Source: Eledone cirrhosa
Lineage: Eukaryota
Length of the DNA stretch: 64,000 bases
Assembly: GCA_964016885.1 (NCBI GenBank)
Contig: OZ024740.1
Span: forward strand, 409,572,001-409,636,000
Reading direction: 5' to 3'
The notes below the pieces were generated by a model. The model did not search any database and was not told the DNA's origin. It worked only from the letters and a program-made list of their open reading frames with translations. Positions 12,755 through 48,388 of the stretch are shown in pieces. The position numbers and the translations under genes were made by a program. The stretch's first letter is position 1, and each line of letters begins with the position of its first letter.

Positions 12755-12953
12755 CTATCTCATAGCCTTCACAAATTCCTCATAATCAATCTTATCGTCG
12801 TCTTTGCTAATAGACCGTATCAACTCTTCTATATCCTGCGTAGAGGGATCCAAACCAATTGATTCCATAGCTTTTTTTAGTTCATTTTTAGTAATGAAAC
12901 CAGATTTGTCTTTGTCAAATTCGTCAAAAGCTTTTTTCAGCTCACCTTCATCA
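12755..12953 (-). CDS. Calmodulin-like EF-hand protein, last coding exon (EF3-EF4)
   Basis: Acceptor ttcttttctttatctag, then (H)DEGELKKAFDEFDKDKSGFITKNELKKAMESIGLDPSTQDIEELIRSISKDDDKIDYEEFVKAMR*. AATAAA at 12732-12727. Confidence 0.9.
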
Positions 12954-14219
12954 CTAGATAAAGAAAAGAAGTAACAGTGAAAACCCTACATTAGTAACTA
13001 TAGAAAACAAATGTATTTGTAGAAAAAGACAAAAACAATAAAATAATGCTGGTTCCTTTAGAATAGTACAAAAGATTTTCGATTTTTGCAGGTGAAGACA
13101 TTTGATATAGTGTAGATCCTAATATACTACTTATAGCCAGCATTTAAAAAAAATCAGCTAGAACCAAACCAATACTCTCCATTACTAAAATGTAAATGCA
13201 CCTCCATAACTCACCCTTCAATAATTTTATCATAATAAATTAAACTTAAAATACCATGGTTCAAAATGTTGATTGTTTTAATGCTTTGCCATACTAGGAA
13301 CAGGAGCAGAGCACACAGATTCGTTATCCGTGTGATAGGCGGTGCAAGATAATCAGATTTTCGTGCGAGTCATTTCAAATCTTTCAGAAATTTAATTACA
13401 TATATGGTTGCCTACTTTATAGGCGTTAGAAGTAATATATTTCGGGAACTTGATGACCTTTTGATTCAAGTCATTGACTTCAGATAGGTTCCTCTGCCCA
13501 ACATTATGTCACCGTTGGTCAATGGATTACTCTTTTGCCGAGATGATTTCACATCCACCATCCTCCTTTGCATGATTTCGCATGTGACTTTGTACTGTGG
13601 CTGTCAGGTGCTGCACCTTTCCTATGAGCAGTCTATGATTATTTCAGGAAAGGCTCTTATTTTTACATTCGCTACTAACACCTATATCTAGAAATCATTA
13701 TCCCATCTCCCACATTGGAACCCACCGGATTGGAGCTTCCTCTCTCCCACATGTAAAATACTCACCCAAATAGTATCAATCGTTGAATGCAGACACCCAA
13801 GACTAAACCATTAGATTTTCACTCAAACCCAAACTGAGCTATTTTGGCTAACAATAACAGTTCGCTAACTACGAAGCATATAATTCCTCTGAATGACTCA
13901 ACGCTTATCATAGTATACAGTCTGCCAGAATTTGGTTAACCTTACGCGCTAACAAATAGAAAATTTCAAAAATTTTACCATATGACTAGTCCGACCCTTT
14001 ATGTTCTGAGTTTAAATACAGCCGAGATTAGCTTTGTCTTTCAATCCTAGGTAATGGTTGTGTATGTCAGCACATTCGAGAACTAGTAACATTACAAGTT
14101 ATATTACAATGGTAGGCTTAGATTGTGGCCCCCAAGAAATGTCGTTTCTTACATGTCTTTGTGTTTTCGAATTTCTAAGTCACCCGAGGTTTTCTTGCTC
14201 AAGAATTTTTTTTAAATAA

Positions 14220-14405
14220 TTGTTTCTACTTTAGGCACAAGGCCAGCAATTACCCAGTGCATTACTGGTACTTTATTTTATCGACCCCGTAAGGATGAAA
14301 GACAAAGTCAACCTCGGCGGGATTTGAACTCAGATCGTAAAGGGACGTAACTATGCTGGAAAGCATGGCGTCCGACCCTCTACCGATACTGCCAATCCAC
14401 CGCCC
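14220..14405 (-). mobile_element. tRNA-derived SINE (family with GGATTGGCAGTATCGGTAGAG...GTTCAAATCC...GAGGTTAACTTTGCC core)
   Basis: Near-identical to the copies at 23325-23508, 24038-24425 and 38140-38530. Confidence 0.85.
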
Positions 14406-14700
14406 TATTTTTTTTAAATAATGGCCGATTATCAAAACTGATTAATCGGTAAAATGGCCGATATGACCGTTGCCGATTATCTGCTGATTAATATATATAT
14501 TAATCATCAGATAATCGGCAACGGTCATATCGGCCATATATATATATATATATATTGTGTGAGAGAGAGAGTGAGAGAGAGAGAGAGAGAGAGAAAGAGA
14601 TACAATATATATATATATATATATATACTATGCATGTATGTATGTATGAACGCAATCGACTATACCACTCCATTATAAATAGAAAGAAATGTGGACTTAC

Positions 14701-14786
14701 TGAATACTTTTCTGGCTCATCACTTTAACGAACTCAGCCTTTGATACTCTGCCATCGTTGTTCTGATCTAATGATTTCAAAGCAGA
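14701..14786 (-). CDS. Calmodulin-like EF-hand protein, internal exon (EF2)
   Basis: ttttttcccgacag|SALKSLDQNNDGRVSKAEFVKVMSQKSI-CA|gtaagt. Phase 0 start; the phase 2 end joins exon 12953 in frame (CA+T=His). Confidence 0.9.
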
Positions 14787-45928: not shown

Positions 45929-46262
45929 TAATAATTGTTTCTACTTTTGGCACAAGGACAGCAATTATCCCAGTATATTACTGGTATTTGCAGTAAAAAT
46001 GCATTGACTGTCCGGTTACTCAAGACGTACCCTGTTGTATGCATATATATATATATGTATGCATGTGTATGTAAGTAGCAACACTAATATAAACACATAC
46101 ACACACACTTACGTTGTATAAGTGTGTGCATGTATAATGTGTAATGTAAATGAGTGCGCATATGTAATGTGTGTGCTCGGTAGCTTGTTTTCTGAATCTG
46201 AAGAGAAGGGCCATGAATATATGATACATAACTTAGTTATCGATAGTGTAAGGATACACACG

Positions 46263-46790
46263 CATGTACACCAGGTCCGAACACAGAGGAGCCGAACTCC
46301 CACTGTCATCGCCTCCGTCTCTCCCGCCTCCCCATCTCTCATGTACACCAGGTCCGAACACAGAGGAGCCGAACTCCCACTGTCATCGCCTCCGTCTCTC
46401 CCGCCTCCCCATCTCTCATGTACACCAGGTCCGAACACAGAGGAGCCGAACTCCCACTGTCATCGCCTCCGTCTCTCCCGCCTCCCCATCTCTCATGTAC
46501 ACCAGGTCCGAACACAGAGGAGCCGAACTCCCACTGTCATCGCCTCCGTCTCTCCCGCCTCCCCATCTCTCACTATTATGAGCAAATGGGGTCCCACACG
46601 CTGGCCTCCCCACAGCCCCAGCGGACAGAATTGAGAAGGCGTTTCCTCGGGGGATGGTGAGGGAGATGCGCTGGAAGAGCCATTCCAGCTCGCGAGGCTC
46701 ACACCTGTGGGTAGCCAACTCTGTGCCAATGGTGGTGAGTAGGGAGGTGGCCCTAGGGTCAAGGACACCAGAAGTCTCCACTTCTAGGGG
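46263..46790 (-). mobile_element. CRE-like 3' end carrying four tandem 77-bp copies of its terminal sequence
   Basis: PLEVETSGVLDPRATSLL..WLFQRISL matches 37500-37690. 77-bp units start at 46263, 46340, 46417 and 46494. Confidence 0.88.
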
Positions 46791-48250
46791 CTTGACAGCA
46801 GGCTTAGCATTTATGTCTGACATGAAAGACCCCACGGTGAAGTCTTGCATTTGGAGTAAACACGATGACTTTCTAATTGCGTACAGTCCATGTTAGAGGG
46901 TGGTGAGATGCAGTGATAGTTCCATACACATCTAATCAATAAAACAAACGAACAATTATAATGGTTTCTGATTTAGGCACAAGGCCAGCAATTTGTGGGG
47001 AGGGGAAAGTCAATTAAATTTATCGACCCGTAAGGATGAAATGTAAAGCTAACCGCGGTAGGATTTGAACTCAGAGCGTAAAAGGCTATAATAATGGTTT
47101 TTACTATAGCCACAAAGCCAACAATTTTGGGGGAGGGAAAAGTCAATTATATCGACCCCATATATATATATAAATATATATATATATATATATATATATA
47201 TATATATATATATATATATATATATATATGTGTGTATATATATATATATATATATATATATATATATATATATATATATACATATGTGTGTATATATATA
47301 TATATATATATATATATACATATGTGTGTATATATATATATATATATATATATATATATATATATATATATATATATATACATATGTGTGTATATATATA
47401 TATATATATATATATATATATATATATACATATGTGTGTATATATATATATATATATATATATATATATATATATATATACATATGTGTGTATATATATA
47501 TATATATATATATATATATGTGTGTATATATATATATATATATATATATATATATATATATATACATATGTGTGTATATATATATATATATATATGTGTG
47601 TGTGTATAAAAAAACATGAGAAGAAAGAGGAATACTGCGTGGTTGCACATGGGTTACATATTATAAAATTAGTCCCTCGTCAGTGATTTGCCAACCATCA
47701 TTGGTATTTCATCGCATATATATATATATATGTATACACACACACACACACACACACACATATATATATATATATACACACACTCACACATATATATATA
47801 TATATATATATATGTGTATATATATATATATATATATATATATATATAGTGTGTGTGTGTGTGTGTGTGTGTGTGTGTGTGTGTGTGTGCGCGCGCGCGC
47901 GTATGTGTGTGTGTGTGAATATATATGCTATATGCATGTAAACGAATGTATATATGTGTATGCACACAGCACAGCTATCGCCTTCATTCATACACTCCCA
48001 ACATGCAATATATGTCTGACCCTGATAAACAGGCGAAACTAAAGTAACAAGACACTTTTTAGCCTTAATATAAATGAATATTAAAACTCTTAGCACACCT
48101 TTCTTTCAGCCGTCAACCACATACGGATATATATATTGTGTACACATGCGTGTTTGTATATGTGTGTGTGTGCGTGAATGTGCGTGCGTGCGCATGTGTA
48201 TGTGTGAGTGTTTAGGTTCATATGTGTTAATATATTAAAAAAACACCAAC

Positions 48251-48388
48251 CTCGATAGCATATTTGCTGCACTTAATATCTCTTTGTTCTAGACCACGTC
48301 TCAATTCATCAACAGACAAGTTACCATCTTTACTTGTATCAAGATCATCGAAAGCTTTTCCCCAATCATAGTTCTCCTTCGAAGCCAT
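48251..48388 (-). CDS. EF-hand protein first coding exon A (canonical EF1)
   Basis: MASKENYDWGKAFDDLDTSKDGNLSVDELRRGLEQRDIKCSKYAIE|gttggt, phase 0. Canonical loop DTSKDGNLSVDE. TATATAA ~80 nt upstream. Confidence 0.85.

What the first reader, a model, noticed from the sequence alone, without database searches (positions are those of the whole stretch)
12755..48388. Four-EF-hand gene with two paralogous, swappable first exons 17 kb apart
Seen: exons 14786-14701 (EF2) and 12953-12755 (EF3-4) splice in frame. Two homologous ATG-bearing exons (48388-48251 and 31348-31199) end at the same aligned position with a phase 0 donor, and each has a TATA-like box upstream. I found no second set of downstream exons between them. 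Exon A has a canonical Ca-binding loop (DTSKDGNLSVDE). Exon B has a degenerate, Cys-containing loop (DKNNCNVLTLDD, no Gly6, Asp12). Inference: alternative promoters give 140-aa and 144-aa isoforms that share EF2-4 but differ in N-lobe Ca2+ affinity or redox sensitivity, a variable-first-exon/constant-exon design.
Basis: partly seen in the sequence, partly recalled or inferred. Interest (0 to 1): 0.8.

Follow-up and report, generated by a model that had tools for sequence, protein, structure and literature searches.

The report
Calcium sensor with three swappable starts
A calmodulin-like gene of a likely octopus has three duplicated first exons above one shared pair of downstream exons; one is seen spliced to the shared part and the other two likely are, which would give three proteins that differ only in their first calcium-binding hand.

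Summary
Exons A, B, 2 and 3 are at the stated coordinates and in frame. A third paralogous ATG exon, C, lies 67 kb upstream of A, outside the window. In 364 kb without gaps, C, A and B share one exon 2/3 pair.

One spliced run shows exon 2 joined to exon 3, and A joined to exon 2 across B. The contig ends imply a second upstream path that fits C, not B (inferred). The B junction was not seen. B still looks maintained: a counterpart in another organism keeps its length and donor position and groups with it at 100/99. That counterpart lacks B's cysteines, so the redox idea is unsupported. The TATA evidence is weak.

The design matches known variable-first-exon genes (GCNT2: three variable, two constant exons), and the EF-hand swap resembles alpha-actinin. 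Ten literature searches found no calmodulin-like case. Verdict: new member of a known kind, interest 0.5.

The parts
48251..48388 (-). Exon A, coding first exon (46 codons): EF1, linker and start of the entering helix of EF2. A third paralogous first exon, C (45 codons, canonical EF1 loop), lies outside the window, 67 kb upstream of A on the same strand, at G000:C1:409687363-409687497.
   Evidence: A: sequence; Pfam EF-hand_6 at 26.3 bits against cut-off 25; spliced to exon 2 in run X4. C: genome search; ATG, open frame and phase-0 GT donor; no exon 2/3 of its own; fits the second path into exon 2 (inferred).
48465..48473 (-). TATA-like motif 85 nt upstream of A's ATG; role unproven
   Evidence: background rate 16%; the X4 contig covers it and runs past 48512
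31199..31348 (-). Exon B, coding first exon (50 codons), divergent EF1 loop, donor AAG|GTAAGG
   Evidence: Sequence; Pfam EF-hand_6 at 16.8 bits, below cut-off; groups with P0004/P0007 at 100/99; junction not observed
31445..31451 (-). TATA-like motif 103 nt upstream of B's ATG; role unproven
14701..14786 (-). Constant exon 2 (86 nt): EF2 with a canonical loop
   Evidence: covered by a spliced contig joined to exon 3
12755..12953 (-). Constant exon 3: EF3 (canonical), EF4 (degenerate, shortened loop) and stop; AATAAA about 20 nt after the stop
   Evidence: best PDB matches are calmodulins

Best explanation
This is one calmodulin-like gene with three tandem-duplicated coding first exons (C, A, B) above a single constant exon pair; A is spliced to the constant exons, C and B likely are too, each probably from its own promoter, which would give three proteins identical in EF2-EF4 and different in EF1. 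SHOWN: three intact paralogous first exons, one exon 2/3 pair, and the junctions A to 2 and 2 to 3. INFERRED: a second first exon in use in the same sample is C (from contig branch geometry). INFERRED: B is functional and used in another tissue or stage (from conservation and constraint). INFERRED: promoter choice selects the exon, since the first donor downstream of each start would be joined to the one strong acceptor. PREDICTED: isoforms A (140 aa) and C (139 aa) have three canonical Ca2+ sites (EF1-3). B (144 aa) would have a weak or Mg2+-leaning EF1, with Cys at ligand position 5, no Gly6 and Asp12. The variable exon also carries both helices of EF1 and half of EF2's entering helix, so it would change the target surface of the N-lobe as well as its Ca2+ response.
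For: Profile search of 364 kb with no N: three minus-strand first exons and one minus-strand exon 2/3. Genome-wide: 5 first exons of this type against 3 exon-2 and 3 close exon-3 copies. Run X4: a 340-nt contig over A runs on with exactly the first 27 nt of exon 2, while three unspliced runs read through the donor. The exon-2 contig starts 3 letters before exon 2. Of 4 simulated exon sets only A+C gives this 27/3 pattern. A's contig is unbroken and shows no variant, so the second path is not a point variant of A. The joined form is not in the assembly. B-type exon in another organism: same 50-codon length, K|V at the donor, 36% identity, 100/99 support. dN/dS is about 0.4 for A-B and 0.3 for A-C. 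Neutral drift to B's distance keeps frame, ATG and GT in 5-8% of runs (half the divergence) or under 1% (all of it). The two whole-gene paralogs and a distant one each showed a single first exon on the same 3-exon plan.
Against: Only one first-exon junction (A) is seen directly, in 1 run, 1 sample and 1 study, whose library type is not on record. The branch pattern argues against B being present in that run. The partner path was not read: 61 [AGT]GAG|GT sites lie in the interval from C to exon 2, 2 of them with a GTRAG donor. C needs a 100.6-kb intron that crosses a near-identical inverted duplication. The TATA motifs are common by chance. B's loop is more degenerate than its counterpart's (Cys5/Asp12 against Ser5/Glu12), which could be recent decay. 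dN/dS on 38 codons is noisy (A-D is about 1). C's neutral survival odds are 10-15% in the half-divergence test. No Ca2+ binding was measured.
Confidence: 0.72

Rival explanations
1. A and C are live alternative first exons, but B is a recently silenced or decaying exon in this species.
For: B's path is not part of the X4 branch pattern. B's loop has lost ligands that its counterpart keeps. B scores below the Pfam cut-off.
Against: Intact ATG, open frame and the best donor consensus of the five first exons. B's end branch (0.46) is shorter than the branch to its counterpart (0.9). One sample cannot show absence.
Confidence: 0.13
2. Only A is used. B and C are orphan first exons left by duplications, and the second path into exon 2 is a cryptic exon or an assembly-graph artefact.
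For: Only A's junction is seen directly. Other xGAG|GT sites exist in the interval. High-depth contigs can break at errors; the same contig also ends 53 nt into exon 3.
Against: Both B and C keep ATG, frame and donor at 54% and 69% nucleotide identity to A. The break falls exactly where A and C diverge. The B type is conserved in another organism.
Confidence: 0.09
3. Exon C belongs to the neighbouring plus-strand paralog (first exon D, its own exons 2 and 3), and an inversion or misassembly has placed it on this strand. The second path could then be D.
For: A 99.8-99.9% nested inverted duplication starts 0.5 kb below C's donor. D also ends in non-C+GAG. C's 5' leader resembles D's.
Against: D groups with the C10 paralog's first exon (83/90), and their exons 2 and 3 are also closer to each other than to this gene's. 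No near-identical inverted pair brackets C and D (copies at about 90% only). There is no N in the region.
Confidence: 0.04
4. The three exons are mutually exclusive internal exons behind one shared non-coding leader exon and one promoter, as in alpha-actinin.
For: The spliced contig over A runs past the TATA-like box, so the start site is not fixed.
Against: The contig is colinear with the genome for 124 nt upstream of A's ATG, with no joint. No good polypyrimidine acceptor is visible upstream of B. Each exon has its own ATG with an in-frame stop upstream.
Confidence: 0.02

Closest known systems
Vertebrate variable-first-exon clusters GCNT2, UGT1A, UGT2A and protocadherin alpha/gamma (PMC1885805, passages read)
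   Same: Tandem paralogous coding first exons spliced to common constant exons. GCNT2 has the same count: three variable and two constant exons.
   Different: Here the organism is a mollusc and the product is a small soluble Ca2+ sensor. The variable exon is only 45-50 codons and cuts through the N-lobe (EF1 plus half a helix of EF2). Separate promoters are described for GCNT2 and only inferred here.
Tandem duplicated exon substitutions, including the ACTN1/ACTN4 EF-hand exons (PMC9741552, passages read)
   Same: Homologous exons swap EF-hand residues, and only one version keeps Ca2+ binding. N-terminal swaps are a known class (40 of 236 human events).
   Different: The actinin exons are mutually exclusively spliced (cited title seen; their internal position is recalled). 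Here they are first exons with their own ATG, there are three, and the EF-hands are the whole protein.
Calmodulin and calmodulin-like proteins (PDB matches; EF-loop rules in PMC5983762, passages read)
   Same: Two-lobe, four-hand layout with no other domain found; the best solved matches of exon 3 are calmodulins.
   Different: 140 aa with a degenerate, shortened EF4. It belongs to a small divergent family: three close genes and one distant gene in this genome. No named close relative was returned by the protein searches.

Membership tests
Variable-first-exon/constant-exon gene (GCNT2/UGT1A type) | Two or more paralogous coding first exons in tandem, same strand, same donor phase | tested here: met
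   C, A and B, all phase 0
Variable-first-exon/constant-exon gene (GCNT2/UGT1A type) | One shared set of downstream exons | tested here: met
   One minus-strand exon 2/3 in 364 kb with no N; genome searches
Variable-first-exon/constant-exon gene (GCNT2/UGT1A type) | Each variable exon spliced separately to the constant exons | tested here: inconclusive
   A is shown. A second path is inferred and fits C.
Variable-first-exon/constant-exon gene (GCNT2/UGT1A type) | Each variable exon has its own promoter | not testable with these tools
   Contigs cannot show starts; TATA motif background is 16%
Calmodulin-like four-EF-hand protein | EF-hand pairs and no other domain | tested here: met
   Pfam on the four exons; PDB matches
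Canonical calmodulin | 149 aa with four canonical Ca2+ loops | tested here: not met
   140 aa; loop 4 is shortened and lacks the position 1 and 3 ligands and Gly6
Mutually exclusive internal EF-hand exons (alpha-actinin type) | Alternative exons are internal, with a shared upstream exon and own acceptors | tested here: inconclusive
   No joint within 124 nt upstream of A's ATG and own ATGs argue against it; a distant shared non-coding exon is not excluded

The most novel reading that the evidence does not exclude
Coleoid cephalopods have an old, conserved modular calcium sensor: promoter choice among three first exons installs a Ca2+-responsive or a Ca2+-blunted EF1 and a different target surface on one constant C-lobe, tissue by tissue. 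It would be a GCNT2/protocadherin-style variable-exon locus built on a calmodulin fold.
Probability: 0.35. Interest if true: 0.68.

Novelty: new member of a known kind. Interest (0 to 1): 0.5.

Why it matters
If all three exons are used, this is a natural domain-swap series: three proteins identical in EF2-EF4 and only 26-53% identical over the aligned part of exon 1. That makes it directly testable how EF1 alone tunes Ca2+ affinity, Mg2+ selectivity and target choice in a calmodulin-type lobe. It would also add an invertebrate signalling protein to a gene design best documented in vertebrate enzymes and adhesion molecules. The genome holds single-first-exon paralogs of the same gene for comparison. 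A 100-kb first intron over two rival first exons is also the kind of structure that gene annotation can split or miss.

Tried and rejected
No RNA holder was listed by the run search. X4 is treated as RNA only because its contigs are spliced.

Runs X1-X3 laid nothing on exon 2. This is uninformative because of the tool's filter.

Contig depths (1425 over A, 2647 over exon 2) fit a second source but are a poor measure, so I do not use them as evidence.

Word-based protein searches with A, B and exon 3 against longer proteins gave 0, 0 and 1 distant hit. No full-length isoform from any species was found. Exact look-ups of 6 read-through frames found 0 of 6.

The ESM Atlas search returned generic EF-hand clusters only. 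The single-sequence fold of exon B gave two helices (4-22, 30-39) at pLDDT 68 and pTM 0.34, too weak to use. The spliced isoforms were not folded.

Earlier scan notes: none found.

Rejected:
- Ordinary tandem paralogs: there are no separate downstream exons.
- A retrocopy as the source of the junction: the junction probe is absent from the assembly.
- Redox sensing by B's cysteines: not conserved.
- A heterozygous variant of A as the second path: A's contig is unbroken.
- Canonical calmodulin: EF4 is degenerate.

The octopus genome paper PMC4795812 was not held.

Full report
OBSERVATION. A (48388-48251, 46 codons) and B (31348-31199, 50 codons) each run from ATG to a phase-0 GT donor. Exon 2 (14786-14701) and exon 3 (12953-12755) follow. 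A+2+3 is an open frame of 140 aa and B+2+3 of 144 aa. A and B align without gaps over their last 38 residues (13/38 identical, E=6e-9), and tblastn found no second exon 2 or 3 in the window. Pfam gives EF-hand families for all four exons, with B below cut-off. The best solved matches of exon 3 are calmodulins. The TATA-like motifs are present (48473, 31451), but 16% of random points in this window have one 60-120 nt upstream.

ORGANISM. The genome is 3.0 Gb and has 39 matches to the molluscan hemocyanin domain. One unit's best single-unit PDB match is 1JS8 (855 bits), ahead of 4YD9 chain C (738). I recall these as octopus and squid hemocyanin; the output names no organism. I therefore call it a likely octopus.

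A THIRD FIRST EXON. Searching the genome with exon A gave three more matches. One of them, C (G000:C1:409687363-409687497), is on the same strand 67 kb upstream of A, with ATG, 45 open codons, a canonical loop and a phase-0 GT donor. I fetched 300 kb around the window and 100 kb on contig C10 and ran profiles of each exon type over all six frames. In 364 kb of C1 with no N there are three minus-strand first exons (C, A, B) and one minus-strand exon 2/3 pair. On the plus strand there is a complete paralog: first exon D with its own exons 2 and 3. C10 holds another complete paralog, and a distant one lies at C1:415.05 Mb; each showed one first exon. The family plan is three exons, and only this copy showed extra first exons. 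The profiles were built from these same exons, so a very diverged extra copy could be missed.

SPLICING EVIDENCE. Four runs from 1 study and 2 samples hold exon 3; none is on record as RNA. X4 behaves as RNA. A 142-nt contig covers exon 2 and continues into the start of exon 3. A 340-nt contig covers exon A and continues with exactly the first 27 nt of exon 2, while X1-X3 read through A's donor unspliced. So A is spliced to exon 2 across 33.5 kb, skipping B. A probe for the joined form finds no match in the assembly.

THE SECOND PATH (INFERRED). The exon-2 contig begins 3 letters before exon 2: two match the genome's AG and one does not. The A contig stops 27 nt into exon 2, giving a 30-letter overlap as expected for 31-letter words. 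Contigs break where paths meet. I simulated 4 exon sets: A alone gives no break; A+B gives 28 and 2; A+B+C gives 27 and 2; A+C gives 27 and 3, the observed pattern. A point variant of A would also have broken A's contig, and none was seen. So a second upstream sequence ending in non-C+GAG joins exon 2 in this sample, and B is not in the graph. C is the only paralogous same-strand candidate. It was not read directly: 61 [AGT]GAG|GT sites lie in the interval from C to exon 2, 2 with a GTRAG donor, and high-depth contigs can break at errors.

IS B ALIVE? A HMMER search with B returned 5 proteins. I examined two. P0002 is a 1109-aa repeat protein matched over a short stretch. P0004 (70 aa, unnamed short contigs, with the cluster member P0007) is an exon-B counterpart read into its intron: Met1, Lys50 followed by Val at the donor, the longer N-terminus and no Gly6. 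In a tree of 7 first-exon sequences, B, P0004 and P0007 form a clade apart from A, C, D and E at 100/99, and P0004's best match in this genome is B. The B type is therefore old and kept by selection in two lineages. Whether it is an alternative exon in the other organism is unknown, as the contigs are at most 1.2 kb. Within the genome, dN/dS is about 0.4 for A-B and 0.3 for A-C, but about 1 for A-D, on only 38 codons. In neutral simulations without indels, frame, ATG and GT all survive B's distance in 5-8% of runs (half the divergence) or 0.2-0.7% (all of it); for C the figures are 10-15% and 1-3%. Against B: its loop has Cys5 and Asp12 where the counterpart has Ser5 and Glu12, and its junction was not seen.

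HOW IT LIKELY WORKS. Each first exon likely has its own start. The transcript's first donor is joined to exon 2's acceptor, and any downstream first exon, lacking an acceptor, is removed with the intron (inferred). EF2 and EF3 have canonical loops and EF4 is degenerate. A and C have Asp1, Asp5, Gly6 and Glu12; B has Cys5, Asn6 and Asp12. Glu12 gives bidentate Ca2+ binding, and Asp12 shifts selectivity towards Mg2+ (PMC5983762, passages). A and C are thus predicted to have three Ca2+ sites and B two plus a weak one. The variable exon also supplies both EF1 helices and half of EF2's entering helix, which in calmodulin line the N-lobe target pocket (recalled), so target choice should differ too. 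The redox proposal is unsupported because neither cysteine is conserved. The start site is open: the X4 contig runs past A's TATA-like box.

COMPARISON AND NOVELTY. The design is known. GCNT2 has three variable and two constant exons, each variable exon with its own promoter (PMC1885805, passages). N-terminal swaps make up 40 of 236 human tandem-exon events, and ACTN1/ACTN4 swap EF-hand exons of which only one binds calcium (PMC9741552, passages). Passages on octopus protocadherins (PMC7811963; PMC6339937) did not describe shared constant exons there. Ten full-text searches (listings and abstract starts seen) returned no description of this locus or of a calmodulin-like gene with paralogous first exons. 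The library lacks most subscription papers, I read no supplements, and public annotations of other octopus genomes, which I could not see, may already list these isoforms.

VERDICT. A real feature, larger than reported. One first-exon junction is shown, a second is inferred, and the third is supported by conservation only. New member of a known kind, interest 0.5.

Noticed in passing
window 44744-45558: Degenerate telomere-type (AACCCT)n array, about 136 units, between exons A and B, bracketed by imperfect inverted repeats of about 33 nt. It looks like a miniature inverted-repeat element carrying telomeric repeats.
   Followed up: partly
G000:C1:409672738-409686844 (L025-L027): Nested inverted and direct duplications at 99.8-99.9% identity around an 830-codon frame, starting 0.5 kb below exon C's donor. 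A very recent retroelement insertion (Penelope-like by recall) or an assembly artefact.
   Followed up: partly
G000:C1:409740285-409765774 (+) and G000:C10:15807930-15814353 (+): Two complete three-exon paralogs, each with one A-type first exon found and no B-type exon. The C1 copy is head to head with this gene.
   Followed up: yes
G000:C1:415051176-415065011 (-): A distant family member on the same three-exon plan; one first exon found in 150 kb, by weak profile matches.
   Followed up: partly
L005 (G000:C14:37427971-37428132): A more calmodulin-like EF-hand exon that resembles squid optic-lobe squidulin (recalled, not tested).
   Followed up: no
window 46263-46572, 41388-41598, 38141-38544: Tandem arrays with periods 77 (4 exact copies), 64 and 202 nt in the intron between A and B.
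   Followed up: no
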